Below, in pieces: positions 526 through 38,800 of a stretch of 64,000 bases of DNA. How positions within the stretch are numbered: position 1 is the stretch's first letter; every line of letters starts with the position of its first letter. The stretch is from assembly GCA_000004985.1 (NCBI GenBank), contig GG738852.1; one strand, written 5' to 3'. Source of the DNA: Naegleria gruberi. Taxonomy: Eukaryota. A model generated the notes under the pieces. The model was not told the DNA's origin. It worked only from the letters and a program-made list of their open reading frames with translations, and made no database searches. Both the position numbers and the translations under genes were made by a program.

Positions 526-1635
526 TTATTCTTCTTCATCACAAAAATTGTGTTCTAATTGGACAAGATTCTTTAAATAAGGGCTATTTGATATTATGGA
601 AGAAGATGAGGCAGAATAGGTATTCAATATTGGTCTTATTCTAAAGTTCTTGTTTCCATTATTGTTTAATAGATATAGAACTTGCAATTTTTTCATATTT
701 GGACTATTTGAAAGTATTTTGATTCCTTCGTCTGTAATCAAATTACCAGACAAATTCAAGTGAGTTAAGTTCAACATGTTAGAACAAATACAAGACAGCC
801 CTTCATCTCCAATACTATTTCCATCCAAATTAAGATTTGTCAATTGAGTTAAATATTGACTCGTGGCTAAATAGGATGCACCTTCTTTTTCAACTCTGTT
901 TCTTTTCAAGTTTAAACAAGTAAGGTTTGAAAGAAAAGGAGAGCTTGCAAGGTATTTAACTCCTTCAGCTCTTAAATTATTTCCATCCAAATTGAGCTCA
1001 GTCAAGTTTGACATGTGTGGAGTATTGGCAAGATGACGTGCAAAGTTGGCATCAACTTTGCATCTTGGTAAATAAAGTTCCTTCAGATTTGAAAACTTTT
1101 CACTCTCAATAATCCTAATTGCTCCAATATTGAGAATTCTTGAGTCAGCAAACTTCAAACTAGTCAACCCAGAAACATTTCCACTTTTTGCAATGAAAAA
1201 AGCAGATTTTGGCCTGGCATTATACACTTGTAATTTCTTCAACTTTGAATTCTTTGAGCAATTAATAGTCTTGTTGACAATTCCACTATCTGTTCCTTGC
1301 ATACTCAACTCCATTACATTATTAAAGAATTTGCTCTTATAAAATTTGTGGTATTGAACCTGTGAGCGATAGGAACTTTTGAGTTCAATTTTACATTCTA
1401 GTTGCTTGATCATTAACAGCCATTCTTTGCACACTAATGCTAGCCGGGTGGCACAATTGAAAGGGCAAATAAATTGCATGATGACACTAATGCAATCTGT
1501 TTGATCTTTCAATCCTTCCAAACAATTCTTTTCATAATAAATTTCAGGTTCCTCTTCATATTCTTCGTAGTCTCCCTGAAATTCTTCCTGTTCTTCACAT
1601 ACGGGAAGCAGAAGCTCATCAGTAATTGCAGACAT
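526..1635 (-). CDS. F-box-like / leucine-rich repeat (ribonuclease-inhibitor type) protein
   Basis: 369-aa ORF with ATG at 1635. The N-terminus has an F-box-like motif (ISVIMQFICPFNCATRLALVCKEWLLMI). It is followed by at least 6 RNI-type LRRs (LTELNLDGNNLRAEGVKYLAS..., LTNLNLDGNSIGDEGLSCI..., LTHLNLSGNLITDEGIKIL...). Confidence 0.75.
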   Translation of the reverse strand: MSAITDELLLPVCEEQEEFQGDYEEYEEEPEIYYEKNCLEGLKDQTDCISVIMQFICPFNCATRLALVCKEWLLMIKQLECKIELKSSYRSQVQYHKFYKSKFFNNVMELSMQGTDSGIVNKTINCSKNSKLKKLQVYNARPKSAFFIAKSGNVSGLTSLKFADSRILNIGAIRIIESEKFSNLKELYLPRCKVDANFARHLANTPHMSNLTELNLDGNNLRAEGVKYLASSPFLSNLTCLNLKRNRVEKEGASYLATSQYLTQLTNLNLDGNSIGDEGLSCICSNMLNLTHLNLSGNLITDEGIKILSNSPNMKKLQVLYLLNNNGNKNFRIRPILNTYSASSSSIISNSPYLKNLVQLEHNFCDEEE

Positions 1636-1732
1636 TTTTTCATTTCAAGATTGAACATCTCCATAAAATTGCATTTAAAAAATTGTGAAATTATTAATTA
1701 TTCTAAATACAAAGTTACAAAATATTTAATGA

Positions 1733-2953
1733 TTAACAATCCTTTTCAATGAATAATCTTCTCACATTGGGAAATATCTTTTCAATTTTGTAATCCAATT
1801 TGTTTTCTCTCAAATCCAAACTGTATAAAGAATTTAAATTACTTAAATAATTTGCACCATTTTTGGTAATTTGATTATTTCTTAATTGTAAATATTTTAA
1901 ATGAGAAAATTTAGAAATAATTTTTGCACCTTGATCCTCAATATTGTTACCATTCAAGTTTAAATCAGTCAGTTTCCTTAAATTTCCTAAATTAGTAATT
2001 CCAGAATCGCTCAATCCATTATATGACAAATTTAGAAAGGTTAAATTGGCTAATTTCCCAATATTTACTAATCCAGCATCTCGAATTACATTTCCACTCA
2101 AATTCAAACTTGTGAAACTTGAAATATTCGAAAGGAACTCAGCACCTTTCGAATTAATATTCGAATTCCACAATTTAAGATGATTCAAACTAGTCAATTT
2201 TGAAATATTTTCAATATCTTCTTCCTTATTGTATTTAACATTGAGAATTAATGAATTTAAACTTTTCATTTCGGATAAATGAGCAGAAGTTCCATAACTA
2301 TCTGGACTACAGTTCAATTCTTTCAGATTCGTCAATTTTTTCAAATAGGCAACCGATTCCGCCTCCAATCTTAACTCTCCCAATATCAAAGATTCCAATA
2401 ATTTCATTTCAGAAATATAAACAATCGACTGCTTTCCAATATCTGTACAGAAAATATTCAACCTTCTCATTGATGGAATTAATGAAATTTCCTTCACATG
2501 TGCATCAGTCACTAGTTCGTTATAACTCAAATCTAAAGCAGTTAAATTCTTTAGTTTTGAGAATATTTTGGTATTTGTTATTCGAACCTGGTGATGATTA
2601 AACGAAAGGTCAGTAACGGATTCTAGTGTTGGGAAGTAGTCAATCATTCTGGAATGAAACTTTCCTTCGATTTTTAAACAACTTTTCAAGACTCTGCTTT
2701 TGCAACATGCCAAGAAACTGTCAACATTTTTAGTGTTGACATTGACAGTGAAAGGTGTTTGTGAAATTAGCTGATTCCAATATTTGCAGACTAATCGGAG
2801 TTTGGAAATTAAATTCTTGTAGGAAAGGCAAATGAAAATGTGATGAGTAATAATTTCACCTGGAATGGAGTGAAATTCACAAGTTTCGTTTGGATTCTCC
2901 AACTTTATTTTCTCTTCCGAGAAGGAAATGAGTGAAATAAGTTGTTGCCACAT
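1733..2953 (-). CDS. F-box-like / leucine-rich repeat protein; paralog of the adjacent gene
   Basis: 406-aa ORF with ATG at 2953. The N-terminus carries an F-box-like motif (IICLSYKNLISKLRLVCKYWNQLI). Then come at least 8 LRRs (LTFLNLSYNGLSDSGITNLGNLRKLTDLNLNGNNIEDQGAKIIS...). It has the same strand and architecture as 526-1635, suggesting a tandem duplicate. Confidence 0.75.
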   Translation of the reverse strand: MWQQLISLISFSEEKIKLENPNETCEFHSIPGEIITHHIFICLSYKNLISKLRLVCKYWNQLISQTPFTVNVNTKNVDSFLACCKSRVLKSCLKIEGKFHSRMIDYFPTLESVTDLSFNHHQVRITNTKIFSKLKNLTALDLSYNELVTDAHVKEISLIPSMRRLNIFCTDIGKQSIVYISEMKLLESLILGELRLEAESVAYLKKLTNLKELNCSPDSYGTSAHLSEMKSLNSLILNVKYNKEEDIENISKLTSLNHLKLWNSNINSKGAEFLSNISSFTSLNLSGNVIRDAGLVNIGKLANLTFLNLSYNGLSDSGITNLGNLRKLTDLNLNGNNIEDQGAKIISKFSHLKYLQLRNNQITKNGANYLSNLNSLYSLDLRENKLDYKIEKIFPNVRRLFIEKDC

Positions 2954-4897: not shown

Positions 4898-7273
4898 TTA
4901 GATTGTTTTGTTTTCTGTTTCTTCTTGTGGTTCAGTGGTGAGAGCTTGTTTGGAGTGCACTTCATAAACAATGAGCCAATTTCTGTATTGTTGAGTGGTT
5001 TGTAAACGACCATACGTATCCCACATATTATAGAGCATGTCACTGGTCAATTGGTGCCAAAGTGCTTCAACTTGTTTGTCAATTTCTGAGCCAGATACTG
5101 AGAATTTTTCTGCCTTCTTTTCTCTGATTTGGTCTAATAATTCATAGAAACGTGCCTTACTTTTGTGATGAATATTGACTTCATTGGGTGAATACATTCG
5201 AATAAAGTTGGATTCAATATGTTCCAATTGTTCCATTGTTGCAAATCCTGCCTTTTTAATTTCCAAAAGTTTGTCAAACAGATTACAGTTTTCCAATGAA
5301 GTTTCATAATAACTGTACTCTTTGAATAGTGTAGAGAAAGAAGGATTATTTGTGAGGAGGTGTTCGAATAAATTTTGTTCTCTTTCAACACTGGAACGAT
5401 TTGTTCTTTTGAATCGTCTTGCCTTAATTTTGTTGACTATTTCAATTGTCATGGCAATGCCTCCACTCACAGCTAACAACCAAACAGCAATTATAAATCT
5501 GACAATGTTACTTCCTAGTTGTGTTTGATTGGCTGGTGTCAATATAACCAATATAATGGCTAATATCACTTGAACAAACAGGGCCATCATATCCAATCGA
5601 ATGTGAGCTGGATCAGCAAAGAAAAAGTATTTTTGAAGTCCCTGTTCCTTGATCTCTTTCCAATTTAGAATTGCATCTATTGCACTATACAGTAAGGCAA
5701 GTACAATGGCTAATGCTGCCAACACTACAAAGTAAATATTGTTGAAAACCACCAAGTTATTAAAATCAACTGCAGCTGCAATGATGGAAGGTGCAACAAA
5801 GATAAATTGTAAAAATAGAGGAAGAATTAAAACAATTCCCCATCCAACCTTTTCAGAAGCTAACCATCTTGCAAATCTTGGATTCTTTGAGTTTTTGATA
5901 ATTCTATATAAATTCTTAATATATAAGAATCTCACAACCATCAATAGATATGCAGATCCAGCATAACCTGTAAATAGTAAAGTGAGTGGTAGCAGTACAG
6001 AACGACAATAATTTCTGACCATTGTTGAAAAGAGAAGTTCTACAAAGACCACCACAATTGGAGAAATGTAGATGGTTGCCAATCTGGTTCTCACTGATGG
6101 AGTTTTGTAAAGTGAAAATCCAAACAGAATTACAAAATAGAAAAATACTGGGACAATGATAATAAAGAGAAGGTAATCACCAATATCAATATTCTCAGCA
6201 GCGCAGGTTGTGGTGGTGCAACAGTGACATGTGGAATTGTAGAGCAAGTTTGATACTTGTGTTTGATTGAATTGATCTAGGGAATTGTTTAAAGTAAGGT
6301 AACTCTCAATGAAAGACCAATCCCTCTGTAATTTGATGGATTGTACACTTTCCAATAAATCAATCTCAGTATGTGTGAAATTCACAACACCATGCAAAGT
6401 GTCCAACACATAAGTGTCATGATATCTACTCAATGAGCAATCTGTTACATTTGTGAAATTTCTCATATTGATTTGACTCGAAAATAAAGAACCACTTCCA
6501 TCAATCGAATTGACCAAAACCTGTGATGGAAATAATGGAATGGGTACAAAATCAGTTGGATTGTAATAAGTACCATCACTCGATGGTGTCGTTCCCATTC
6601 CATAAAATAGACCCTTCCTCGTCACAAATTGATTCACTCTCACGTAGAATGCAAAATCAAAACTATTCAACAATAAGGCATCTCCCAATTCCAAACTAGA
6701 TCCATAAATACAATCAGGATAGAATGAAGAACGTGATTCCACAACAAAATTCTGATCAATCCATGTCTTGTTGTAATTTGTTGTCAGTGAGCTCCATATT
6801 TTCTGACATGGATACAGTTGTGGACAAAGAATTTTAAATTTCCTTGTCTTTCCAAATGGCTGTCCATTGGTTGAATAAAACTTTGTAAAATCTTGAGAAT
6901 TATTCGACACTCTCCCTATCAAATCATCCAAACTAAATGGATTTGTATTTTCTATTATCCCATTCGGATAAACAAATTTCCTCCATACAAATATAGAATA
7001 ATAATTGAAGGCACCAACAATTATCGAATTATTCTTCAAGTCTTGCATGTTGACCATGCTAACCTTATCTTGTATTTGCTGTTGTTGATATCCTAGAACA
7101 TAATTGGGTAGAGCGGAAAAGGTCAGTATTAGCAGTAAAATGTAAAATAGTTTGGTTTCTAATAAACTAATAGGAATGTTAGAATAAATACTCCCATAAG
7201 GTAAGAACCCAGTTCTTGTTGTGTGACCTATTATAACAGTCTGCACGTGTTGTGTGGTGTAACTTTGTGCCAT
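4898..7273 (-). CDS. Seven-transmembrane receptor with C-terminal RGS (regulator of G-protein signalling) domain; large extracellular N-terminal domain
   Basis: The likely ATG is at 7273 (MAQSY...); the ORF track M at 7312 is an alternative start. A hydrophobic signal-like segment (LFYILLLILTFSALP) and about 330 aa of Cys-containing ectodomain are followed by 7 hydrophobic helices between about residues 375 and 640. The cytoplasmic tail holds an RGS-like block: FEHLLTNNPSFSTLFKEYSYYETSLENCNLFDKLLEIKK ... IESNFIRMYSPNEVNI ... fits the RGS pattern F..FL..E.S.EN..F, and the downstream RGS helices are also recognisable. Confidence 0.65.
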   Translation of the reverse strand: MAQSYTTQHVQTVIIGHTTRTGFLPYGSIYSNIPISLLETKLFYILLLILTFSALPNYVLGYQQQQIQDKVSMVNMQDLKNNSIIVGAFNYYSIFVWRKFVYPNGIIENTNPFSLDDLIGRVSNNSQDFTKFYSTNGQPFGKTRKFKILCPQLYPCQKIWSSLTTNYNKTWIDQNFVVESRSSFYPDCIYGSSLELGDALLLNSFDFAFYVRVNQFVTRKGLFYGMGTTPSSDGTYYNPTDFVPIPLFPSQVLVNSIDGSGSLFSSQINMRNFTNVTDCSLSRYHDTYVLDTLHGVVNFTHTEIDLLESVQSIKLQRDWSFIESYLTLNNSLDQFNQTQVSNLLYNSTCHCCTTTTCAAENIDIGDYLLFIIIVPVFFYFVILFGFSLYKTPSVRTRLATIYISPIVVVFVELLFSTMVRNYCRSVLLPLTLLFTGYAGSAYLLMVVRFLYIKNLYRIIKNSKNPRFARWLASEKVGWGIVLILPLFLQFIFVAPSIIAAAVDFNNLVVFNNIYFVVLAALAIVLALLYSAIDAILNWKEIKEQGLQKYFFFADPAHIRLDMMALFVQVILAIILVILTPANQTQLGSNIVRFIIAVWLLAVSGGIAMTIEIVNKIKARRFKRTNRSSVEREQNLFEHLLTNNPSFSTLFKEYSYYETSLENCNLFDKLLEIKKAGFATMEQLEHIESNFIRMYSPNEVNIHHKSKARFYELLDQIREKKAEKFSVSGSEIDKQVEALWHQLTSDMLYNMWDTYGRLQTTQQYRNWLIVYEVHSKQALTTEPQEETENKTI

Positions 7274-7473: not shown

Positions 7474-7992
7474 TTATTGTTTCCACAAGCCAATTCCTCT
7501 ATTTCTTGCACTTGTTTCATATTGCTTGTATTCACTTTGATATTTAACATTGGGATGATAGAAAACAGCTCTAGCATAACCTCCTTCCAATAGCATTTTC
7601 TGAAAATTATTTCCTCCAACCCAAACATGTGCCAATAATCTTCCATAACCATCTCTCAATTCATTTTCAAACTCTAGAATGATACTTGCATTTTCTAGTA
7701 CCTGCTTTGTGTAATCTGAAGCAGCCTGTCCATAGTATTCCTTCTTCTTTTTAGGATGAACTGTTTCGGGTGTATCCACTCCAATCAATCGAATTCTTTC
7801 CTTCTCTCCATCACGCATTTTACAAATAATTGTATCACCATCGACAACTCGCAATACACGAATATTCTTCATTTGGGAATTTCTGGTCGGTTCCTGAACG
7901 AGTGGTAAATTTAAATTTGAATTTTGAAAGGAATTCTTCCAAATAATCGTTCCGATCAAGAGGATTGCAAAAATCAGCACTTTGAGTTCCAT
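7474..7992 (-). CDS. Secreted staphylococcal-nuclease-like (thermonuclease / SNase) domain protein
   Basis: 172-aa ORF with an N-terminal hydrophobic signal peptide (LKVLIFAILLIGTIIW). The SNase core is recognisable: VLRVVDGDTIICKMRDGEKERIRLIGVDTPET...KEYYGQAASDYTKQVLENASIILEFENELRDGYGRLLAHVW...LLEGGYARA. The catalytic Arg/Glu/Arg and the Ca-binding DGDT / D-T-P-E motifs are all present. Confidence 0.85.
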   Translation of the reverse strand: MELKVLIFAILLIGTIIWKNSFQNSNLNLPLVQEPTRNSQMKNIRVLRVVDGDTIICKMRDGEKERIRLIGVDTPETVHPKKKKEYYGQAASDYTKQVLENASIILEFENELRDGYGRLLAHVWVGGNNFQKMLLEGGYARAVFYHPNVKYQSEYKQYETSARNRGIGLWKQ

Positions 7993-8040: not shown

Positions 8041-11000
8041 TTATTTTGTTTCAAAATAGGAATGTTCCATAATTTCTTTAGCTTGTGGTCTTTTGGATGG
8101 GTTTTTCTCCAACATTAAAATGATGATTTCCTGTAGTGTGTCTGAATACTTGCCACATTCAGAGAGCTTGTTTTTAAGCCATTGCTTTACATCATTGGTA
8201 GACTCTGATTGCATGTATAAATTACTAATGGATGTAACTAGGTCACCTGTGCATAATTGATAAATTGCAACTCCTAGAGAATACACATCAGTGTTAAAGC
8301 TATACTTTGCTCCAAGACCTAATTCTGGAGACATGTAAAGAGGAGTTCCAGCATAAGAATTATTGACAGAACCAAACATTTGTTTCGCAAGACCAAAATC
8401 TGCCAATACTATCGATACAGAATTATCTGATAATTCATTAATAAAGATATTGTTAGGTTTTACATCTCTGTGAATCATTTTAAGGTTGGTGTGAACAAAG
8501 CTCAAGGCATCACAGCCTTGATAAAGTATTTGTTTCACAATATCCTCACTAATAGTACCTGCTGCTTTAGGAATGAGTTTTGTCAAGTCTCCATTTTCAT
8601 AATAGTCCATGTCAATAAGTAATATTTGATCCTTGTCAATAAATAAATCATTCACTTTTAAAATGTTTGGGTGATTGATATTCATCAATTGAGTTCCTTC
8701 TTTCATAATCGAGTTCAATTCCTCAATATCAGAATATTTGACAACTTTTAGCGCCTTCAGTTTATCGCCCATCTTGGTATCGTTGCATTTAAAAACTGAC
8801 CCAAATCCGCCTTGTCCAATCTTCTCCAAATTCTTATATCTTGAGGCAGGATCGAAATTAGATGCAGATGATATTATAGAAGTGACAGTAAGTCCATTAG
8901 AGTTTGTTGAACCTCCAATTATGGATTTGAAACGAACACTTTCGTCCGATGGAAAGTCTGAACTATATGATGATGGCGCAATGCTAGAATTCATTTTGTT
9001 ATACTGTGAATCATTGAGTTCAATCATGCTCTCTCCCTGATTAGGGAAATCATTGACAGTGTTTGGGACTGGTTTCTGCTTTTTCATTCCTCTAAAAACT
9101 ATAATGAAAACAATTATGACCACAATAATCAATATAACAATAACTAAAAGAGAAAGTCCGACTGCTAAACCAATTATTAAACCTAGTTGATTATTGCCTA
9201 CTATTGTTGAAGAACCAACTCTTGTTGCAATGTTAACATTGCAACTAGAACCTGTCCATCCAGCATTACAGTTGCAATAGTTATAATCAGTGCATTTTCC
9301 ATTTGAGGAACAAGAGTTGGTGTTATTGGAATAAATTCCATAACACATGGTTACTTCACAATATTTTCCATAGAAATTACTACCACAACTACAAGTATCA
9401 TGAGATGAACAACTTCCTCTCGAAGAACAAACAGAAGAATCAGTGCTTTGAGTACCATTACAAAGAGATACCTTACATTCAGTTCCTTGATAGAATGGTT
9501 CACACTGACAAGTGTCTGCTGCTACACAGGTACCATGGCCCCCACAAACAGAAGCATCAGTGGATAACTTTCCAAAACATTTTCTGGTATCACAATTGAC
9601 TCCATAAAATCCATTATTGCATGAACACGAATTGTAATCGATACATGTACCATTGGAGGAACAAACTGAAGTGTCATTCGAAAACTTTCCATAACACATG
9701 GTTACTTCACAATATTTTCCATAGAAATTACTACCACAAATACAAGTATCATGTGCGTTGCATACTCCCCTTAAAGATGAGCATACCAATGTAGAATTAC
9801 TTAATGTACCGTTACAAGTTGTAATTTTACAGTCAGCTCCAAGGTAAAGGCTGTCACATCTGCAAGTGTCACTAGAAATACATGCTCCATGGCCGCTACA
9901 AACATTACTTGTATCGTTTGATAATTTACCAAAACAACTCAATAAATTACACTGAGATCCATAGAATCCTGAGTTGCACTGACAAGTGTCTGGTGCAATG
10001 CATGTACCATTTCTTGAACAAGCATTTGGCTGCTCTGAGCTAAAACCAAAACATGTTGGGATGCATGCATTATAATATTGGTTCAAAATGTAGGGAGAGT
10101 CACAATATGGGGTCAATTGTCTTACAGTATTTTTCTGATTATCAACAAAAACAATTTCAGAAGTAGAGGTAATGAATGCTCCACTAGGGCTTAGAGTGGC
10201 TTTAGTGGCATCGGGACCATCATCATTGAATCCAACCAGGTTTGATCCACCATTTCCTGCCATTGTAGATATAATTCCATTTGCTGCTAATCGCATTCTG
10301 TTTTGTCCTCTGTCAGAAATGACAATAAAATTCGAAATACTTGATCCAAATACAGAAATAGGTGAGAGACCTGCATATAAAATATTACCATTATCATTCA
10401 GACTTGCACCCAACCCAGAGTAAACATTCAGAATATTGGTGCTTGAATCCACATACATGACGCTCAATTTCGAGTTATAGTATGCCAAAAAGTAAAATCC
10501 AGTCGGTGAAACATATATTCCTCCATCTACACTAATTGTGACAGAATTAGCTTGCGATGATCCAGGAATAAATGTTGATTCTGAACTGATAGTTCCAGCA
10601 ACATTTGTTATTATTCCATTGGAATTGATCTTCCTTATCAGAAAATTATCCACAATGAAAACCTCATTAGCAGAAGTGACAAAAATACCAGTTGGGAAGC
10701 TGAATACATTTGGGTGAGCAAAAAGAGTTTTGAAACTTACTAAAGTCTTGCACTGAGAGCATTGACACCATCATCACCTAAATATCCACTGGAAGGTGGC
10801 TGTGATCCAGTACCTGCAATAGTAACAATGGTACCATTAGTGAATATTTTTCTAATTCTTCTATTAACACTGTCTGATATGTATACTTCATTCTTGAATT
10901 CAAATACAGAACTAGGATAGTTCAGTTGAGCTGTGGAAGCATCCATATAATCGCTATTGTATCCAGCAACTCCGGTACCAGCTATCGTAATTATAGTTCC

Positions 11001-12594: not shown

Positions 12595-13019
12595 TTTTTT
12601 CTTGTTTGATTTGACATGGTCCAAAAGTGGCTAATATGTGAATGGTGCTGAACAGCAAAGATGAACTAGAATTTGATTTGTGATGCCAATGGAACTATCA
12701 GATCAAGTAAAGGTACTTCCTCATATCTTCCTGTAATCCAAAGCCAAAAACATAAAATTATGGATCACAGCCATCATCAAATTGACAATCACTAGAATTT
12801 ATCTTTTTGCACAGTTCATTGTCTGGTAAATTAAATCCAATTTGAAGTTATTAATGTTGAAGAGAATTCTTCCAAGCCAAACATTCCGATTCATCATTGA
12901 AGGGTAAAATAAAAAAGAAGCTTCATTCCATTTTTTTAAATAATTTTCCCGCCCAAAATAAATTTAATCCATCAAAATCTAAATATTGTAACAACTCATA
13001 TTTAATAATATTAAAAAAA

Positions 13020-15065
13020 ATGAGTCTATCAATTTTACCACAAGATTTAATTTACGAAGTGATGAAATTTCTTCGTGTCGATCAACGTATTCGCATCTCG
13101 AGAGTTTGCCAAGAGTTTTATCATATCATAGCGTCTCTTTTTCCCGCACTAGAATTAAATTTGAGTGGCGGGAAAATATTACCAGTAAATTTACCAAGTT
13201 TTCTTTCGTGTCCATTTCTTGAGCAGGTTACAGTGTTGGATCTTTCAGAGAATCTTTTATCAGAGGAGAATATTATTGCAGTTGCCAACTGTGAAAGATT
13301 TAAAAAATTAGAAGAGTTGATTTTGAAAAAGAATGAGTTTAGTTTAAAATGTGCCGAAGCTTTTACTAAATCATCATTTATTAGACAATTGAAATATATT
13401 GATCTTAGAAATGCATTCTTTGTATGGAAAGATGTAGATCATGTTGAAATTGGAAAGAAATTTATTACAAGTCAACCACAAGATTTGCAAAATTTTTGGT
13501 ATCTAGTTTTGGGTAATTGTGGAACAGAAATAGTACCTGAATGGTTATTGGTTGGATGTAAAGAGGGAAATAGTAAATTGCATTGGGAAACTCAATTGGA
13601 GTTTGGTGAATATTTATACCATTCTGAACAAAACACATCACTAGCAATTCAATACTTTGAGGAGTTGGGCAATAATCCACTAGCTCATAATAGAGCTATT
13701 GCCATGTACGTTTTGGGTAAAATTTATTCAACACTAGGTGAAAAGTATCATTCGAAAGCATTCCAGTTATTCTTAAAAGCGGCAAATCTTGATGATCAAC
13801 TATCCTATTTGTCTGTTGCCAACTTTTATTCATTTGGAATTGGTATTGGATCAGATCCAGATGAAGCATTGAAGTGGTATTTGAAATATGCAGAGAATAG
13901 TAATGATGATGATGGAGTTGTTGCACATCAAATTGGTGGTATTTATTTTGAGTACAAAAAAGATATCCCACAAGCTCTGAAATGGTGGAACAAATCTGCG
14001 GAAAAGGACAATACAGAAGCACAATATTCACTCGGTACAATATATATGAATGGGGATGGTGTTGAAAAGGATGTTAAGAAAGGTATGGCACTACTTGAGG
14101 ATTCAGCAAGATTGGGCAATTCTGATGCTCAGAATACAGTCGGTGCAATTTACTTAGAAGGTGAAGATTCAATTGAAATAGATCTCAATAAGGCCAAAGA
14201 CTTTTTAATTGCGGCAGCTGAGGCAGAAGACACAGATGCTCTCTACAATTTAGGGATATTAGCAGAAAATGAAAAACGATTCGAAGAGGCAATGCAATGG
14301 TATAAAAAGGCCTTAGATATGGGAAATACAGCTGCTGCTTATCCACTCGGAAGGTTTTATTTCCAAGGACTGGTAGCTCCAAAAGATGAAAAGAAAGCCA
14401 TTCATTATGTTGAAATCGCCGCCAATAATAATTCTTCAATAGCCCAAGAATATTTGGGTGATATTTACCACACCAAAGAGAGTGAAATTTATAATCCTGT
14501 AAAGGCAATTGAATGGTACACAAAAGCTGCCTCGAATGACTCTACCAATGCCATGTATAATTGTGGATGTATTAATGAGGAGCTTAATAATTTTGAAATG
14601 GCTTTATATTGGTATACAAAGGCGATAGAAAAGGGTAGTTCATCAGCAATGAATAATTTAGCAATGATATACTATGAAAAGAAGAATTATGAGAATGCTA
14701 AGAAATGGATAGAAAAATCAGTGGAGTTTAACAATTCATATGCAATATGCACGATGGGTGAGTGGTATATAGAAGGTTTATGCTATGAAAAGAGTTATGA
14801 AAAGGCTGTTCAACTCTTTACTAGATCAACTCAATTTACAGATGAAAGTGGTGACCAATCGATTTGTCCTCCTGCTTTCCTGCATCTCTATAAATTATAT
14901 GCTAATGGTTTGGGATGTGAGAAGGATTTGGAAAAGGCACAACAATTGCTCGAAACTGCTGCCAAATTAGAAATACAAGAAGCTATTGAAATACTCGAAG
15001 ATCAACAATCCAAAAAGAGAAAATCAACCACTGAATATGATGGCTCATCAAAGAAAATGAAATAA
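13020..15065 (+). CDS. F-box-like / Sel1 (TPR-like) repeat protein
   Basis: The true ATG is probably at 13020 (MSLSILPQDLIYEVMKFLRVDQRIRISRVCQEFYHII gives the F-box-like motif). It is followed by at least 9 Sel1-type repeats (e.g. AQYSLGTIYMNGDGVEKDVKKGMALLEDSARLGNSDAQNTVGAIYLEGE). The C-terminus is basic and Lys-rich. Confidence 0.75.
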   Translation: MSLSILPQDLIYEVMKFLRVDQRIRISRVCQEFYHIIASLFPALELNLSGGKILPVNLPSFLSCPFLEQVTVLDLSENLLSEENIIAVANCERFKKLEELILKKNEFSLKCAEAFTKSSFIRQLKYIDLRNAFFVWKDVDHVEIGKKFITSQPQDLQNFWYLVLGNCGTEIVPEWLLVGCKEGNSKLHWETQLEFGEYLYHSEQNTSLAIQYFEELGNNPLAHNRAIAMYVLGKIYSTLGEKYHSKAFQLFLKAANLDDQLSYLSVANFYSFGIGIGSDPDEALKWYLKYAENSNDDDGVVAHQIGGIYFEYKKDIPQALKWWNKSAEKDNTEAQYSLGTIYMNGDGVEKDVKKGMALLEDSARLGNSDAQNTVGAIYLEGEDSIEIDLNKAKDFLIAAAEAEDTDALYNLGILAENEKRFEEAMQWYKKALDMGNTAAAYPLGRFYFQGLVAPKDEKKAIHYVEIAANNNSSIAQEYLGDIYHTKESEIYNPVKAIEWYTKAASNDSTNAMYNCGCINEELNNFEMALYWYTKAIEKGSSSAMNNLAMIYYEKKNYENAKKWIEKSVEFNNSYAICTMGEWYIEGLCYEKSYEKAVQLFTRSTQFTDESGDQSICPPAFLHLYKLYANGLGCEKDLEKAQQLLETAAKLEIQEAIEILEDQQSKKRKSTTEYDGSSKKMK

Positions 15066-26351: not shown

Positions 26352-28490
26352 TTAATATTCTCTATTGAGGAAAGCATCAAGAGATAATTGTCTTGGATCA
26401 TTGTTTGGACCCTTGACAGGTTTTACAGATTTCACATAAATAACTTCATCATCATCATCATCTGACATGTCATCAGCAGCAGTTGTGGAATCAGTCTTAG
26501 TCTTTTTTGAAGACTTGCTACTGTCACTTTCTTCAGATTTACGTTTCTTTGGAGATTTGGCATCTTCACTAGTGGAGCTCTTCTTTTTAGGAGAAACCAT
26601 AGTTTCTGATGTTTTTCTTTTAGGGTTAGCAGGAGCTTCTGGATAAACACAATCTAATCCCTTCTTTGTGCATGTAAGACATGATGGAATATGTCTGCTA
26701 CACTTCTTGTGAGATTTTTTGCAACAGAGGCAAGAAAAATATGACAATTGTTCTTCAGAATTCTCAGTTTCTGATGATGAACTAGATGCTGTAGATTTCT
26801 TATCTTTCTTAGATTTGCTACGTTTTTCAGAAGCTTTTTCTTTTTTACCTGCAGATTTCTTATCTTTCTTAGATTTGCTACGTTTTTCTACTTTTTCTAC
26901 TTTTTCAACCTCACAAACAGATGTATCAAGTCCTCCAACCTCAAAATCCATCTCGTTTGGTATTGAGGAAGGAGTGGTAGAAGTTGGCGTAATTAAGGAG
27001 ATGGTTTCAATAGCCTTATCAGCTGAATTGCTATCGGGATTTTTGGTAACATCCAAAGTAAGTTGTCCTTTTTCATGTTTTTCATTCTTTTTGGTTTTCT
27101 TTTCAGCTTTCTTTTCATTCTTAGTGTCAGATTTTTGCTCGGATTTCTTTTCAGTCTTGTCTTCAATCTTATCCTCCACCTTCTTTTCAGACTTATTTTC
27201 AGTCTTGTCATCTACATTCTTATTATCTTCATCATTCTTCTTATTTTTTCTATTTTTCTTCGTTTTTTTGTTTTCTGTTGTTGGCTTTTCACTCATTTCA
27301 ACATCTTTTGTCTGTTCGAAAGGCTTTTCTTGTGGGCTTTTCACTGATTCTTGAGAGCTTATTTGAGAATTATCCTTTGAATTTTCCTTGTTCTTCTCTT
27401 TTTTCGACTTTTTGTCCTGTGTCGCCTTATTGTTTTGAGATGATTCCTTTTGCTCCTTTTGTACCTCTGTTGTTTTTGGTTGCTCTTTAGTTTGTTTTTC
27501 TGTGATTTTTGGTTGCTCTGGCTTCTCTTGAGAGCTACTTTGTAATGTTCCATTTGTTGGTTGAGTAACATGTTGATTTTCTATAGCCTTTTTTGATTTT
27601 TCATCCTTCTTTTGAAGATATCTTGGTTTATCCTTAGGCTGTTCCTTTGGTTGGATTTTTGGCTTTTCTTGTGAGCTTGCCACTGATTCTTGAGAGCTAT
27701 TTGGCAAAATTGCGATTGGACTTTCTTGTTGTTTCTGTGAGGTTCCATTTGGTTGGGCTAGAGGTTTCTCTTGTGTAACTTGTTGGATAGTTGGTTTAAT
27801 TGACTCGATTATATTAGATTTGGCTATTATTGGGGATTCCTTAGACAGCACGATAGCAGCTGGTTCAGGTTGTGAAATAGTTTCAGGCTTATTCTCGACG
27901 GAAGCAACAACTGGATTAAATTTTGCTTTGAAACTATTTTCTTTTTTGTCTTTCATTCTACCCTTCAGTCGGGAAACTAATTTGTTGAAGGTTTTGACTT
28001 GGCTTGGTGGTGTAGATGATGTTGTAATAATACTAGCATATGCATTTGTAGAGTTCGTAGCATTTGTATTTGAACAAGTTGTAGTGTTTGATGATTCATT
28101 AGAAGCTTGTTTAGGTGTTTGTTTTTTTGGTTTCTTCTTCACTTCCTCGGAATCTGATTCACTCTCATCGCAATACATTGACTCCCAATCTTCTTCTTCA
28201 TCTTCCGAATCATGATTTATACTAAAATCCTCATCCTCTTCCTCTCTATATTCTGTTGGCCTTGAAATAATGTCATCTTCATCACTTGATTCATCCACAA
28301 AAAAATCATCATTTAATACATCGTCATCCTCCTCGTCCTCCATTAAATTTAAAATGCTCGGATCCAATAAATCATCACCATCATCCTCCTCGTAAACTAC
28401 TACTGTCTTGGTCTTCCTTGGGGATTCAGCCTTTCCTTTGTCTTTACTGATTGTTTTACCGGAGAGTGTTTTCTGGACGGTCTTTGGCAT
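26352..28490 (-). CDS. Low-complexity acidic/Lys-Ser-rich nuclear-type protein with a Zn2Cys6 binuclear-cluster-like motif
   Basis: 712-aa ORF with ATG at 28490. It has an acidic N-terminus (DEEDDDVLNDDFFVDESSDEDD), then a long K/E/S/T/Q-rich region. Near the C-terminus is CLCCKKSHKKCSRHIPSCLTCTKKGLDCVY, which is C-x2-C-x6-C-x6-C-x2-C-x6-C. A bipartite NLS-like KKRK follows. Confidence 0.55.
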   Translation of the reverse strand: MPKTVQKTLSGKTISKDKGKAESPRKTKTVVVYEEDDGDDLLDPSILNLMEDEEDDDVLNDDFFVDESSDEDDIISRPTEYREEEDEDFSINHDSEDEEEDWESMYCDESESDSEEVKKKPKKQTPKQASNESSNTTTCSNTNATNSTNAYASIITTSSTPPSQVKTFNKLVSRLKGRMKDKKENSFKAKFNPVVASVENKPETISQPEPAAIVLSKESPIIAKSNIIESIKPTIQQVTQEKPLAQPNGTSQKQQESPIAILPNSSQESVASSQEKPKIQPKEQPKDKPRYLQKKDEKSKKAIENQHVTQPTNGTLQSSSQEKPEQPKITEKQTKEQPKTTEVQKEQKESSQNNKATQDKKSKKEKNKENSKDNSQISSQESVKSPQEKPFEQTKDVEMSEKPTTENKKTKKNRKNKKNDEDNKNVDDKTENKSEKKVEDKIEDKTEKKSEQKSDTKNEKKAEKKTKKNEKHEKGQLTLDVTKNPDSNSADKAIETISLITPTSTTPSSIPNEMDFEVGGLDTSVCEVEKVEKVEKRSKSKKDKKSAGKKEKASEKRSKSKKDKKSTASSSSSETENSEEQLSYFSCLCCKKSHKKCSRHIPSCLTCTKKGLDCVYPEAPANPKRKTSETMVSPKKKSSTSEDAKSPKKRKSEESDSSKSSKKTKTDSTTAADDMSDDDDDEVIYVKSVKPVKGPNNDPRQLSLDAFLNREY
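26793..26888. repeat. Direct repeat of a 36-nt unit (2 copies, about 60-nt period) inside the coding sequence 26352-28490
   Basis: agatttcttatctttcttagatttgctacgtttttc occurs at about 26793-26828 and again at about 26853-26888. On the minus strand this encodes the duplicated peptide RSKSKKDKKS. Confidence 0.6.
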
Positions 28491-34708: not shown

Positions 34709-35965
34709 ATGAAAAGAAAACTTGAAAAGAAACAAGTGCTTGTGGGAAAGAAGATCAAAATGAAGAGCATTGAATTATTCCCTGATGATATTTGTTATGA
34801 AATATTAAAATATTTAAATTTTCAACAAGTGCTACTGAACGCATGTAAAATTTCAAAGCAATTTTACAGAATTTCCACCACAAGATATGAATTTACAATC
34901 AAATCGGAAGAAACTGCTGATGATTGGTTCAAATACAAAAGTATTTGGACTAAATTTGTTAAATATTGTGAAAAACACCATTGCCCCTATTTGAAGAATG
35001 TTAGAACATTGATAATTATTGACGTGTTGTTGGTTTTAGATGATGATGAATGGGAAATTGTTTGTGCAATGAAGGAATTGAGAGAATTGAGATTGGAAAT
35101 TTTTATTAAAACTTTGGAAAACAAGCAAATTCAAATGTTGGCTAAACATTTAACAAAACTGGAAAAGATTATATTAGGTGGTAATGTTAGTGATGAAAAT
35201 GTTCAACAATTTCAATTATTTCCAAATTTAACAAGTTTGAAAATACCACAGGGTCATATTACTAATTTGAAAAATATAGCCAAATTAGAAAAATTGACTG
35301 AATTGGATATTGGAGAATGTTGTGATATTGTGTTGGACGATGGTCTCAGTCCTCTGGCTTTAATGAAAAATCTGACAAGTTTGTCTCTTTCAAAAATTGT
35401 ATTCGCACCTGAAGAGTACAAGCCCATCACACAATTACCTCGCCTTGTCTCTTTGGATGTGTCCTCTTCAGATAATACTGTTGAATCAATCAAGATATTG
35501 ACAAGCTCACTAAAGCAGTTAACAATATTTAACATTAGCAACAATTTTCTGATTGGGGATGAAGCTGCTCGATTAATTGGAGAATCACTGAAACAATTAA
35601 CATTTTTAAACATCAGCAATACCAATTTACAACCACAAGGAGTTAAATATATTTGTGAATTGACAGAGTTGAGACATCTTGAAATGGGAGAAAATCAGAT
35701 TTTCGATCAGGAGGTGGTTTTCATTTGCAAATCAAAATTTTCATCCAAATTGACAAACTTGGATTTGAAAAATACTAGAATTTCAAAAGAATGTCTCAAA
35801 TCACTATCTACACTCGACAATCTTCAATATCTTAATTTGATGTTTACAGAAATAGACAAATCCAACATTACATTTCCATTCAAGAAATTGAGATTCCTCA
35901 CACTTAAGGAAAATAACCTAGATGGAGATGAATTGGAAGAATTGACCAATTTCAATCAACAATAA
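34709..35965 (+). CDS. F-box-like / leucine-rich repeat protein
   Basis: 418-aa ORF. The N-terminus has an F-box-like motif (LFPDDICYEILKYLNFQQVLLNACKISKQFYRI). Multiple LRRs follow (LTELDIGECCDIVLDDGLSPL..., LTFLNISNTNLQPQGVKYICELTELRHLEMGENQI...). Confidence 0.7.
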   Translation: MKRKLEKKQVLVGKKIKMKSIELFPDDICYEILKYLNFQQVLLNACKISKQFYRISTTRYEFTIKSEETADDWFKYKSIWTKFVKYCEKHHCPYLKNVRTLIIIDVLLVLDDDEWEIVCAMKELRELRLEIFIKTLENKQIQMLAKHLTKLEKIILGGNVSDENVQQFQLFPNLTSLKIPQGHITNLKNIAKLEKLTELDIGECCDIVLDDGLSPLALMKNLTSLSLSKIVFAPEEYKPITQLPRLVSLDVSSSDNTVESIKILTSSLKQLTIFNISNNFLIGDEAARLIGESLKQLTFLNISNTNLQPQGVKYICELTELRHLEMGENQIFDQEVVFICKSKFSSKLTNLDLKNTRISKECLKSLSTLDNLQYLNLMFTEIDKSNITFPFKKLRFLTLKENNLDGDELEELTNFNQQ

Positions 35966-36991: not shown

Positions 36992-38800
36992 TTACTCAAT
37001 TGTACATGGAAGATTATTAATCTCGAAAACTCTCTTCATAATATCAAAGTGATATTGGATATTTGGATGTATATCATGAAAATACAAACCCTTATCAATG
37101 ATCATATGGATAAGGTTTTTGTCTTGTTTTAACCTTTCGCTGGCATATCTTATTGATCTTGGATTGTTCAACACTGCCTTGTATACAATTTCTCTATCAT
37201 CCCTTAATTCTGGATTCAAATACTCAAGCCATTCTCCCTGCTTACTCACCAATTCTAGTGCCAATAATCTTGGAATTCCATGTAAAGATTTTGCAGGAAA
37301 GTAAGTAGCGTCATCGATTGAAATTATCCTCAAAAGCTGGCCACATTTTAACATTTCATCTGAAACAAATACAATACTATATGGATCTATCTTAACAAGT
37401 TCTTTCATGAATTCCATATCGTTCCATAAATTTGGATCTATCATTTGTTGGAGTTTGTCATTGAGGATTAGTAATGGTTTTTTCTTTTTGAATAGTTCCT
37501 TAATAAGTTCTCTGTCCGATCTGTACTTTGCAGGTATTTCTTTGAAATGAATCAAGTATTGAAGAGCTGATTCTCTAGTGTCAACCTTTTCCAGATTTCT
37601 CTTTATAAATCCTTTGTAATTTTCAATGAATTCTTTAATTTCTTCTGCAGGATTGACTACTTGTTTACAGATGCTGTCAGCGAGAGATCCATTTCCAAAC
37701 AAATCTTTCACAATTCTTTTAAAGTACTTATTGGTAAATTGCTTATTTTCCAACAAATCCTTATCCGACATTGATAATGGAGCTTTGAGTCCCAATGAGA
37801 GAATCACATCTGGATCCCTGCTACAATAGCAACTATAAGAAAAACCGGGCTCAATTTTGAGAGCCTTAATCATGAATTCCTTATCCTTTAACAGTTCCTT
37901 TCCAACAAATTGCAAAATATATTGTGGATGATTACCCATGCCTGTTTCTATTAATCCATAATCTTGACCAGATTTAATGGCAGCCATGGCAATCTTTGGA
38001 TCATTCTTGAGATTATCAGTTGCATGTGCAATAGAATATGGATTTGAATTGACAGCTTGCATGACAATTTCTGGATCTGATTTAAAAGTATCGCTTGCAA
38101 ATTTCAAAGCAGCACCATTTAACTTTACAGCCTTTGAGACAATTGACTTGTCATTCTTGAATTTCTCTTCAACAAATTGCAAAGCGAGTGGATTACTTTT
38201 GACAGCCATTAATACTACTGCCTTTTTGTTTCTCAATTTTTCACTAGCAAATTTGATACATTCTCCTTGTTTTCTAATGGCCTTTAACATGAGTTCTTTA
38301 TCATCTTTAATCAAAGGTATCACCTTTGACCAGTCATGATCATGAATATGTGAATTCAAGTCTAATAATTTGTTAATGACATCTCTGTCATGTAGCAATT
38401 CTTCTGGAAGATGATCGAGAACCAATCTGTTCAATTTCATAATCACCTCCTTATCCTTCCTAAATTCCTCTGGCAAATGATCAATTTGAATAAATTCCGA
38501 TTTTGAATCGAGTAATTTCATAATAAAATCTCTATCCTTAGTGGTGGATAACCTTTCTCTGAAATCCAACAATCCAATCCTATACAATTCCCTCAGGCAT
38601 TCAATCTTGTTATTGGTGAATAAATAATTTTCGAGAGTTTTTTCCCTTTTATTACTTGTTGTGTTGAGAAATTGTGATGATGAGAAATTTCTAGTCATTG
38701 TAAATATTGACGATGATGATTTGAGAGTTTGAATGAATCCCGAAGATGGTGATGAACCCTGTAAGGAGAACAATCTAACCTTGTTAACAAGTTGTTTCAT
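36992..38800 (-). CDS. DUF4116-repeat protein
   Basis: 602-aa ORF with at least 8 tandem units of about 35 aa. The units follow the pattern D.E.V..AV..N..AL.YAS..LK.D (e.g. DKSIVSKAVKLNGAALKFASDTFKSDPEIVMQAVNSNPYSIAHATDNLKNDPKIAMAAIKSG; DREIVYKAVLNNPRSIRYASERLKQDKNLI), which is typical of DUF4116. Confidence 0.6.
   Translation of the reverse strand: MKQLVNKVRLFSLQGSSPSSGFIQTLKSSSSIFTMTRNFSSSQFLNTTSNKREKTLENYLFTNNKIECLRELYRIGLLDFRERLSTTKDRDFIMKLLDSKSEFIQIDHLPEEFRKDKEVIMKLNRLVLDHLPEELLHDRDVINKLLDLNSHIHDHDWSKVIPLIKDDKELMLKAIRKQGECIKFASEKLRNKKAVVLMAVKSNPLALQFVEEKFKNDKSIVSKAVKLNGAALKFASDTFKSDPEIVMQAVNSNPYSIAHATDNLKNDPKIAMAAIKSGQDYGLIETGMGNHPQYILQFVGKELLKDKEFMIKALKIEPGFSYSCYCSRDPDVILSLGLKAPLSMSDKDLLENKQFTNKYFKRIVKDLFGNGSLADSICKQVVNPAEEIKEFIENYKGFIKRNLEKVDTRESALQYLIHFKEIPAKYRSDRELIKELFKKKKPLLILNDKLQQMIDPNLWNDMEFMKELVKIDPYSIVFVSDEMLKCGQLLRIISIDDATYFPAKSLHGIPRLLALELVSKQGEWLEYLNPELRDDREIVYKAVLNNPRSIRYASERLKQDKNLIHMIIDKGLYFHDIHPNIQYHFDIMKRVFEINNLPCTIE

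What the first reader, a model, noticed from the sequence alone, without database searches (positions are those of the whole stretch)
4898..7273. 7TM receptor with a C-terminal RGS domain and a large Cys-containing ectodomain
A single polypeptide has a signal sequence, an ectodomain of about 330 aa, seven predicted TM helices and an RGS box in the cytoplasmic tail. Its topology matches the 7TM-RGS architecture known from plant AtRGS1 and some protists. Such proteins are proposed to be ligand-regulated GAPs for G-alpha rather than GEF-type GPCRs. The ectodomain has no obvious known fold and could be the ligand sensor.
Basis: partly seen in the sequence, partly recalled or inferred. Interest (0 to 1): 0.55.

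Follow-up and report, generated by a model that had tools for sequence, protein, structure and literature searches.

The report
Naegleria seven-helix receptor with RGS tail

Summary
The minus strand 7273..4898 carries one uninterrupted 791-aa ORF of Naegleria gruberi. It encodes:
- an N-terminal hydrophobic segment (aa 42-62)
- an alpha/beta ectodomain of about 300 aa with 8 Cys and 9 N-glycosylation sequons
- seven TM helices (aa 364-612)
- a cytoplasmic RGS domain (aa 629-779)

The RGS call is marginal for this sequence alone (Pfam 21.1 bits, cut-off 23.9). It is secure at family level. The family profile hits only RGS structures in the PDB (best 1.2e-8). The family consensus scores 42.7 bits. 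The model superposes on RGS17. All G-alpha contact residues are kept.

At least 150 representative relatives exist. All named ones come from Naegleria species or Willaertia. This is the 7TM-RGS family described by Bosch et al. 2022 in N. fowleri, where RGS domains of other members act as GAPs on self-activating G-alpha subunits.

New here:
- The member is unannotated and its public gene model is N-terminally truncated.
- Many paralogs share the orphan ectodomain.
- The cytoplasmic loops are more conserved than the RGS domain.

Verdict: real, interpretation supported, new member of a known kind.

The parts
4898..7273 (-). Complete coding sequence, 791 aa plus stop codon, with no intron needed
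   Evidence: ORF list and sequence. It is 100% identical to N. gruberi P0001 and 49% identical and colinear with N. fowleri P0002.
7088..7150 (-). N-terminal hydrophobic segment (aa 42-62), either a signal peptide with a long n-region or a signal anchor
   Evidence: Kyte-Doolittle peak of 2.0. AF2 helix 36-53 at low confidence. Equivalent segments occur in the ortholog and paralogs. Cleavage was not tested.
6245..7087 (-). Extracellular alpha/beta domain (aa 63-343; structured from about aa 71); family-specific, no known fold assigned
   Evidence: AF2 pLDDT is mostly 75-96. It carries 9 sequons and Cys150, 156, 188 and 279. The window's ectodomain matches 14 others directly (E from 4.5e-40 to 1e-8), and 46 of 73 family ectodomains form one phmmer single-linkage cluster with it. 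No Pfam, PDB or NCBIfam hit.
6185..6244 (-). Cys-rich juxtamembrane linker (aa 344-363, 'NSTCHCCTTTTCAAENI'; family consensus S.C..C....C)
   Evidence: C349, C352 and C357 are conserved in 66-76% of 50 members. The segment is coil in the AF2 model. It is not a Pfam GPS motif.
5438..6184 (-). Seven-transmembrane domain (aa 364-612) with a GPCR fold
5930..5932 (-). Invariant Arg448 at the cytoplasmic end of TM3 (family motif R..YLRNLY)
   Evidence: Conserved in 100% of 50 members.
5591..5677 (-). Third cytoplasmic loop (aa 533-561), the most conserved stretch of the protein (family motif D.I.NRK.IK.KG...FLFFDDPF..R.D; D554 invariant)
   Evidence: 2.65 bits per position, against 1.9 for the RGS domain and 0.8-1.4 for the outside loops.
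4937..5389 (-). Cytoplasmic RGS domain (aa 629-779), with a 13-aa variable insert at aa 720-732
5288..5305 (-). RGS motif ETSLEN (aa 657-662), aligned to the E(F/Y)SEEN motif of RGS16, RGS17 and RGS10
   Evidence: HMMER alignments. E657, S659, E661 and N662 are 92-100% conserved in the family.
5174..5176 (-). Asn700 in 'SPNEVNI', aligned to the Asn of the EVN/QVN motif of RGS16 and RGS10 (the RGS4 Asn128 position)
   Evidence: Alignments. 98% conserved in the family.
5006..5020 (-). RGS motif DTYGR (aa 752-756), aligned to 'DSYSR' of RGS10 (the RGS4 Asp163, Ser164 and Arg167 positions)
   Evidence: Alignment to RGS10. D752, T753 and R756 are 92-98% conserved.

Best explanation
The gene encodes a plasma-membrane receptor-type GTPase-activating protein of the heterolobosean (Naegleria/Willaertia) 7TM-RGS family.

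Proposed mechanism:
- The N-terminal hydrophobic segment directs the glycosylated, disulfide-bonded ectodomain of about 300 aa to the outside of the cell.
- A GPCR-fold seven-helix bundle spans the membrane.
- The C-terminal RGS domain sits in the cytoplasm next to membrane-anchored G-alpha subunits. There it accelerates GTP hydrolysis on one or more of Naegleria's many G-alpha subunits, some of which exchange nucleotide spontaneously. This holds them in the GDP state.
- An extracellular cue sensed by the variable ectodomain and outer face changes how well the RGS domain reaches G-alpha. The change could be conformational or could involve removal of the receptor from the membrane, as in Arabidopsis AtRGS1. 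Either way the pathway is released or damped.

Shown here: the architecture, the topology signals, the predicted GPCR and RGS folds, retention of every G-alpha contact residue, and membership of the family.
Inferred: GAP activity of this particular protein, its G-alpha partner, regulation by a ligand, and the ligand's identity.
For: - Architecture and topology.
- RGS by sequence: PF00615 E=4.2e-4 for the protein alone. The family profile hits 35 PDB chains, all RGS, best 1.2e-8, some across the whole domain. 36 of 50 members hit PF00615. The family consensus scores 42.7 bits, E=8.7e-11.
- RGS by structure: Foldseek to RGS17 (6am3), 135 columns, TM-score 0.63, probability 1.0.
- G-alpha contact residues kept and 92-100% conserved: E657, S659, E661, N662, N700, D752, T753, R756.
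- Family size and origin: 150 representatives at E<=1e-3 and 52 at E<=1e-30. Named members are from N. gruberi, N. fowleri, N. lovaniensis and Willaertia magna, several labelled 'RGS domain-containing protein'.
- Conservation pattern fits a receptor family with diverse inputs and a common cytoplasmic output: cytoplasmic loops 2.0-2.65 bits per position, ectodomain and outside loops 0.8-1.4.
- Literature: N. fowleri has 28 7TM-RGS proteins. RGS domains of 7TM RGS2-4 accelerate GTP hydrolysis on Nf G-alpha 2, 3, 5 and 7, two of them self-activating (PMC9283941). N. gruberi has 229 RGS proteins (PMC3971589) and about 44 G-alpha subunits (PMC8584482).
Against: - This protein alone is below Pfam's RGS gathering score (21.1 against 23.9 bits), and its public record carries no domain annotation.
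- No biochemical data exist for it or for its N. fowleri ortholog. The four N. fowleri proteins that were tested are much larger (1215-2459 aa) and have different ectodomains.
- The RGS domain has a 13-aa insert between helices and scores weakly in its C-terminal half.
- The 7TM cytoplasmic loops are more conserved than the RGS domain, and an invariant Arg sits at the end of TM3. So the bundle may do more than anchor the RGS domain (see the first rival).
- No ligand or fold could be assigned to the ectodomain.
- Expression and the true start codon were not checked.
Confidence: 0.75

Rival explanations
1. It is a dual-function receptor. The seven-helix bundle itself couples to a G protein through its strongly conserved cytoplasmic loops, either as an exchange factor like a conventional GPCR or as a docking site for the heterotrimer. 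The tethered RGS domain then shuts the same G-alpha off quickly. The protein would shape signal kinetics rather than act only as a ligand-regulated GAP.
For: - ICL1, ICL2 and ICL3 are the best conserved parts of the protein (2.04, 2.20 and 2.65 bits per position, against 1.9 for RGS).
- Arg448 at the cytoplasmic end of TM3 and Asp554 in ICL3 are invariant in 50 members. The Arg occupies roughly the place of the Arg of the class A DRY motif (my own knowledge, not tested).
- The bundle has a true GPCR fold.
- Naegleria has both slow-exchanging and self-activating G-alpha subunits, and both kinds interact with 7TM-RGS proteins (PMC9283941).
Against: - No 7TM-RGS protein has been shown to have exchange-factor activity (literature as read).
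- The conserved loops could equally hold the RGS domain in cis or bind a kinase or arrestin.
- There is no sequence similarity to any Pfam GPCR family.
Confidence: 0.15
2. The RGS domain is a degenerate, non-catalytic RGS-homology domain used as a scaffold, as in axin, GRKs or sorting nexins. The protein would signal or traffic independently of G-alpha GTP hydrolysis.
For: - The Pfam score is sub-threshold for this protein.
- There is an insert at aa 720-732, and the C-terminal half of the domain matches weakly.
- Some RGS domains have lost GAP activity (PMC3971589).
Against: - All residues aligned to the G-alpha-contacting positions of R4/RZ-type RGS proteins are present and nearly invariant across the family.
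- The best PDB matches are catalytic RGS proteins (RGS17, 10, 1, 5, 16), not RGS-homology domains.
- Paralogs' domains are active GAPs.
Confidence: 0.07
3. The long ORF is a gene-model artefact: two genes, or a pseudogene, read through as one.
For: The public gene model differs from the ORF at the 5' end: it starts at Met76 and lacks the hydrophobic segment. No transcript data were examined.
Against: - The 2.4-kb ORF is uninterrupted in a 33-34% GC genome.
- The order of domains is the same in the N. fowleri ortholog and in many paralogs from four species.
- The AF2 full-length model is confident (pLDDT 82.9, pTM 0.79).
- Even the public model includes ectodomain, 7TM and RGS in one protein.
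Confidence: 0.03

Closest known systems
Naegleria fowleri 7TM RGS proteins (28 genes; Nf 7TM RGS1-4 studied; Bosch, Jeck and Siderovski 2022, PMC9283941)
   Same: - Same genus and same architecture: ectodomain, 7TM, then a C-terminal RGS domain.
- N. fowleri proteins are direct homologs over ectodomain, 7TM and RGS (P0002 at 49% identity; P0003 at E=1.5e-137).
- Large family members of 1186-1371 aa also match the 7TM-RGS part.
- Canonical G-alpha contact residues are kept.
   Different: - The proteins that were tested are 1215-2459 aa, with EGF-like, lectin and GPS-motif ectodomains.
- This one has a compact orphan ectodomain of about 300 aa and no GPS, EGF or lectin hit in Pfam.
- Neither it nor its ortholog has been tested.
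- I could not check whether its ortholog was among the 28 counted.
Arabidopsis AtRGS1 (plant 7TM-RGS)
   Same: - 7TM followed by a cytoplasmic RGS domain.
- Proposed logic of a receptor that holds a self-activating G-alpha in check and is relieved by a signal (PMC3865004, PMC3386157, PMC9283941).
   Different: - From my own knowledge, AtRGS1 has almost no extracellular N-terminal domain, and plants have one or few copies.
- Here there is a 300-aa ectodomain and a family of well over 100 members.
- Homology of the two 7TM domains was not tested.
Class C GPCRs (GPR156, GABA-B, mGlu, TAS1R, GPR158)
   Same: - The general layout is alike: a large extracellular domain plus a Cys-containing linker before the bundle.
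- GPR158 recruits an RGS protein (RGS7-Gbeta5) in trans (PDB 7ewp, listed).
   Different: - No sequence match to 7tm_3, ANF_receptor or NCD3G.
- The margin over class A is small (16.6 against 15.1).
- The RGS domain is fused in cis.
Trichomonas vaginalis and other protist or early-fungal 7TM-RGS proteins
   Same: The same fused architecture, and the same pairing with self-activating G-alpha subunits (PMC3865004, PMC3971589).
   Different: No named non-heterolobosean protein appeared among the 30 relatives whose names I looked up. The fusion may be independent or too diverged to detect.

Membership tests
RGS domain (Pfam PF00615) | Significant match to the RGS profile | tested here: met
   Alone the protein scores E=4.2e-4 and 21.1 bits, below the cut-off of 23.9. 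The family consensus scores 42.7 bits, E=8.7e-11. 36 of 50 members match. The family profile hits only RGS chains in the PDB, best 1.2e-8.
RGS domain (Pfam PF00615) | All-helical RGS fold | tested here: met
   The AF2 model has helices at 629-779 with pLDDT about 90. Foldseek to RGS17 (6am3): 135 columns, rmsd 4.3, target TM-score 0.63, probability 1.0, though the E-value is only 0.15. This is a predicted structure, not a solved one.
RGS domain (Pfam PF00615) | Residues that contact G-alpha switch regions (RGS4 S85, E87, N88, N128, D163, S164, R167) | tested here: met
   S659, E661, N662, N700, D752, T753 and R756 align to the corresponding motifs of RGS16, RGS17 and RGS10. They are 92-100% conserved in the family. 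The RGS4 numbering is from my own knowledge.
RGS domain (Pfam PF00615) | GAP activity on a G-alpha subunit | not testable with these tools
   Shown only for other N. fowleri family members (PMC9283941).
7TM-RGS receptor-GAPs (AtRGS1-like architecture) | Seven TM helices N-terminal to the RGS domain in one polypeptide | tested here: met
7TM-RGS receptor-GAPs (AtRGS1-like architecture) | RGS domain on the cytoplasmic side | tested here: met
   In silico only. Lys/Arg clusters lie in ICL1, ICL2 and after TM7. All 9 ectodomain sequons plus N582 fall in predicted outside segments. An N-terminal hydrophobic segment precedes the ectodomain.
7TM-RGS receptor-GAPs (AtRGS1-like architecture) | 7TM domain homologous to that of AtRGS1 | not tested
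Naegleria 7TM RGS family (Bosch et al. 2022) | Homology to N. fowleri 7TM proteins with a C-terminal RGS domain | tested here: met
   P0002 (N. fowleri) is 49% identical over 91% of the query. P0003 (N. fowleri 'RGS domain-containing protein') scores E=1.5e-137. Further N. fowleri, N. lovaniensis and N. gruberi members were found.
Naegleria 7TM RGS family (Bosch et al. 2022) | Ortholog included in the published list of 28 | not testable with these tools
   The supplement held lists only the four cloned members, by AmoebaDB number.
GPCR fold | Seven-helix bundle superposable on solved GPCRs | tested here: met
   [not shown]
Class C GPCR (7tm_3 with Venus-flytrap and Cys-rich domain) | Sequence membership in PF00003, ANF_receptor or NCD3G | tested here: not met
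   No Pfam hit for the protein, for 50 members or for the 7TM consensus.
Adhesion-type receptor (GAIN/GPS) | GPS motif before TM1 | tested here: not met
   No Pfam GPS hit in this protein at E<=1 or in the 17 ectodomains scanned. The juxtamembrane 'TCHCCTTTTC' lacks the C-x-C-x-H-L-T/S pattern (sequence; pattern from my own knowledge).
Type II periplasmic-binding-protein fold (NMT1/SsuA-like) for the ectodomain | Profile or structural match to PBP families | tested here: inconclusive
   - The Willaertia paralog P0041 and its subgroup consensus hit PF09084 at 22.3 and 21.7 bits (cut-off 20.5).
- That subgroup aligns to the window-type ectodomain with hhalign score 35.6 and E=6e-4, against at most 16.7 in 30 shuffles.
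- The window protein, its subgroup consensus and both profiles hit no PBP in Pfam, NCBIfam or PDB.
- No PBP appears in the top 50 Foldseek hits.

The most novel reading that the evidence does not exclude
The shared ectodomain may be a much-reduced type II periplasmic-binding-protein (Venus-flytrap-like) module that binds a small molecule. It would be joined by a disulfide-tethered Cys linker to a class-C-like seven-helix bundle. The bundle's invariant cytoplasmic loops would dock G-alpha for the fused RGS domain. That would make this a nutrient or metabolite sensor built like a class C GPCR but wired to switch G proteins off, expanded to well over a hundred variants in vahlkampfiid amoebae.
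Probability: 0.2. Interest if true: 0.55.

Novelty: new member of a known kind. Interest (0 to 1): 0.3.

Why it matters
7TM-RGS proteins are central to the idea that many eukaryotes control G proteins by regulating the off-step rather than the on-step. Naegleria has the largest known set, and one species is a lethal human pathogen in which these receptors have been proposed as drug targets (PMC9283941).

This gene adds three things:
- A compact, Pfam-invisible member whose public model lacks its targeting sequence. Domain-based censuses of such receptors therefore undercount them.
- An orphan ectodomain shared by many paralogs, which is a tractable candidate ligand sensor of about 300 aa.
- Cytoplasmic loops that are more conserved than the RGS domain. 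This points to an untested second contact between the receptor and its G protein or a regulator.

None of this changes the current picture. It refines it.

Tried and rejected
- Word-index homolog searches. All three (full protein, 7TM-RGS alignment, 50-member family profile) returned only the protein itself and its N. fowleri ortholog. The exhaustive HMMER search was needed to find the family.
- AF2 on a two-sequence alignment of the 7TM-RGS part was unusable (pLDDT 46).
- The afdb50 fold library was not installed. AtRGS1 and other AlphaFold models could therefore not be compared, and one fold search remained unused.
- Ectodomain fold. Nothing came from the profile against PDB, 17 members against Pfam, consensus sequences against Pfam and NCBIfam, or the Willaertia-type profile against PDB. 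The exception is a marginal NMT1 hit confined to the Willaertia subgroup.
- The A6-versus-A7 hhalign result (99.7%) is circular, because A6 contains two A7 sequences. I discarded it in favour of the independent test with shuffle controls.
- GPS/adhesion-GPCR reading: rejected for this member, which has no Pfam GPS, EGF or lectin hit.
- Functionally linked neighbours: rejected. This is a eukaryotic locus, and no G-alpha or second RGS gene occurs among window ORFs of 200 aa or more. The family HMM hits only this ORF in a six-frame scan.
- A short 5' intron that would give a better start: considered from the sequence and rejected, because the only GT..AG candidate is 25 nt.
Full report
**What is in the sequence.** The window is nuclear DNA of Naegleria gruberi, at 30-38% GC.
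- On the minus strand an uninterrupted ORF runs from the first ATG at 7273 to a stop codon at 4898-4900, giving 791 aa.
- It is 100% identical to the database entry 'predicted protein [Naegleria gruberi]' (P0001). That model is 716 aa, carries no Pfam annotation and begins at Met76 of the ORF.
- The only other hit of the word-indexed search is an 851-aa N. fowleri protein (P0002), 49% identical. It is colinear from the start of the conserved ectodomain to the C-terminus, and it too has an N-terminal hydrophobic segment.

**Topology.**
- Kyte-Doolittle analysis gives a hydrophobic segment at aa 42-62, followed by VLG|YQ. It gives seven further peaks between aa 359 and 612.
- Lys/Arg clusters lie in the loops predicted to be cytoplasmic: after TM1, after TM3 and after TM7.
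- Nine NxS/T sequons and eight cysteines lie in aa 63-363. The only sequon within the 7TM loops (N582) is in a predicted outside loop.
- Seven ectodomain cysteines and Cys423 are conserved with N. fowleri. Cys423 sits at the top of TM3, where GPCRs usually carry a disulfide cysteine. The second outside loop has no Cys.
- I therefore infer, without proof, that Cys423 pairs with one of the juxtamembrane cysteines (349, 352 or 357).

**The family.** An exhaustive HMMER search with the two-sequence profile found 150 cluster representatives at E<=1e-3, which is the listing limit. Of these, 99 are at E<=1e-10 and 52 at E<=1e-30.
- Most full-length hits have an N-terminal hydrophobic peak and 150-900 aa of N-terminal sequence. 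They also have six to eight hydropathy peaks and a C-terminal 'E-x-S-x-E-N' motif.
- I looked up names for 30 relatives. Every one that names an organism comes from N. gruberi, N. fowleri, N. lovaniensis or Willaertia magna. The rest are unnamed metagenome or EukProt entries.

**RGS domain.**
- Alone, the protein matches PF00615 at E=4.2e-4 and 21.1 bits, under the 23.9-bit cut-off. It matches RGS16 in the PDB at E=0.03.
- With the 50-member alignment A5, all 35 PDB hits at E<=0.01 are RGS domains (best RGS17, 1.2e-8). Some alignments cover the whole domain.
- 36 of 50 members hit PF00615. The family consensus scores 42.7 bits.
- The alignments place ETSLEN (657-662), the Asn of SPNEVNI (N700) and DTYGR (752-756) on the motifs that carry the G-alpha-contacting residues of R4-type RGS proteins. 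These positions are 92-100% conserved in the family.

**Structure model.**
- AlphaFold2 on two sequences failed (pLDDT 46). On A5 it gave pLDDT 82.9 and pTM 0.79.
- The model has an alpha/beta ectodomain (aa 71-343), a coil linker, seven long helices and a helical RGS domain.
- Foldseek against the PDB gave only weak E-values (>=0.018). All the top hits shown are GPCR bundles, apart from the LYCHOS/GPR155 membrane proteins and RGS17, which aligns over 135 columns with TM-score 0.63.
- The bundle therefore has a GPCR fold with a slight lean towards class C.
- No Pfam 7TM family matches the protein, the members or the consensus.

**Ectodomain.**
- 46 of 73 family ectodomains form one phmmer single-linkage cluster with the window's. 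Its direct neighbours score from 4.5e-40 to 1e-8.
- The most conserved positions are C188, D241-F242, P249, C352 and C357.
- Neither members, nor consensus sequences, nor profiles hit anything in Pfam, NCBIfam or the PDB.
- There is one exception. A Willaertia subgroup (P0041 and its consensus) matches NMT1/THI5-like, a type II binding-protein family, at 22.3 and 21.7 bits, just above the 20.5 cut-off.
- That subgroup is related to the window-type ectodomain over aa 177-313. The hhalign score is 35.6 with E=6e-4, against at most 16.7 in 30 column shuffles and 12.7 for the reversed alignment.
- The subgroup profile hits no binding protein in the PDB. No binding protein is in the top Foldseek hits of the model.
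- I treat 'binding-protein-like' as a lead, not a result.

**Conservation pattern.** The cytoplasmic loops are the best conserved parts of the protein, while the outside parts vary most.

| Region | Bits per position |
|---|---|
| ICL1 | 2.04 |
| ICL2 | 2.20 |
| ICL3 | 2.65 |
| RGS domain | about 1.9 |
| TM helices | 1.5-1.9 |
| Outside loops | 0.8-1.4 |
| Ectodomain | 0.9-1.2 |

- Four positions are invariant: R448 (end of TM3), D554 (ICL3), and E661 and N749 (RGS).
- This fits a receptor family with many inputs and one cytoplasmic partner. It also suggests that the bundle's inner face has a conserved contact of its own.

**Comparison with what is known.**
- 7TM-RGS proteins are established in plants (AtRGS1), Trichomonas and many other lineages (PMC3971589, PMC3865004, PMC3386157).
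- For Naegleria, Bosch et al. 2022 (PMC9283941) reported 28 7TM-RGS genes in N. fowleri.
- They showed that the RGS domains of three of them accelerate GTP hydrolysis on G-alpha subunits, including self-activating ones. They proposed that the family arose by adaptive radiation for sensing outside cues.
- The members they tested are much larger and have EGF, lectin and GPS features. The present protein belongs to a compact subgroup with an orphan ectodomain.
- N. gruberi has 229 RGS proteins and about 44 G-alpha subunits. The window itself has no G-alpha gene and no second family member.

**Verdict.** The protein is best filed as a new, unannotated member of the known heterolobosean 7TM-RGS receptor-GAP family. 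GAP activity, the G-alpha partner, ligand regulation and the ectodomain fold remain inferred or open.

Noticed in passing
window 7048-7273 (-): The public N. gruberi gene model (P0001, 716 aa) starts at Met76. It omits the N-terminal hydrophobic segment that the ORF, the N. fowleri ortholog and most paralogs possess, so it is probably truncated at the 5' end.
   Followed up: partly
window 5438-6184 (-), aa 386-399, 448-473, 533-561: Across 50 family members the three cytoplasmic loops of the 7TM domain are more conserved than the RGS domain. Arg448 at the end of TM3 and Asp554 in an 'FFDDP..R.D' motif are invariant. This suggests an uncharacterised conserved contact on the inner face of the bundle.
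   Followed up: partly
window 8041-10653 (-): The neighbouring ORF of 870 aa is a single-pass receptor kinase. It has seven teneurin-type EGF repeats, one TM segment and a Ser/Thr-Tyr-type kinase domain (Pkinase E=1.7e-54).
   Followed up: no
window 7474-7992 (-): A 172-aa ORF lies directly upstream of the receptor gene. It has an N-terminal hydrophobic segment and a staphylococcal-nuclease domain (E=8.5e-28), so it may be a secreted nuclease.
   Followed up: no
window 26352-28490 (-): A 712-aa ORF carries a fungal-type Zn(2)-Cys(6) binuclear cluster domain (E=4.6e-7). It lies in the 2-kb bin with the most extreme AT skew of the window (-0.32), and a 211-aa ORF overlaps it on the opposite strand.
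   Followed up: no
window 526-2953 (-), 12897-15065 (+), 34709-35965 (+): The window holds several F-box proteins with LRR or Sel1/TPR repeats, plus one adjacent LRR-only ORF. It also has a protein with six DUF4116 repeats (36992-38800) and a 1136-aa PP2C phosphatase (41576-44986).
   Followed up: no
relatives P0041 and P0047 (Willaertia magna): A Willaertia subgroup of the family has an ectodomain that passes Pfam's cut-off for NMT1/THI5-like, a type II substrate-binding-protein family. This is the only hint of a known fold for any compact ectodomain in the family.
   Followed up: partly
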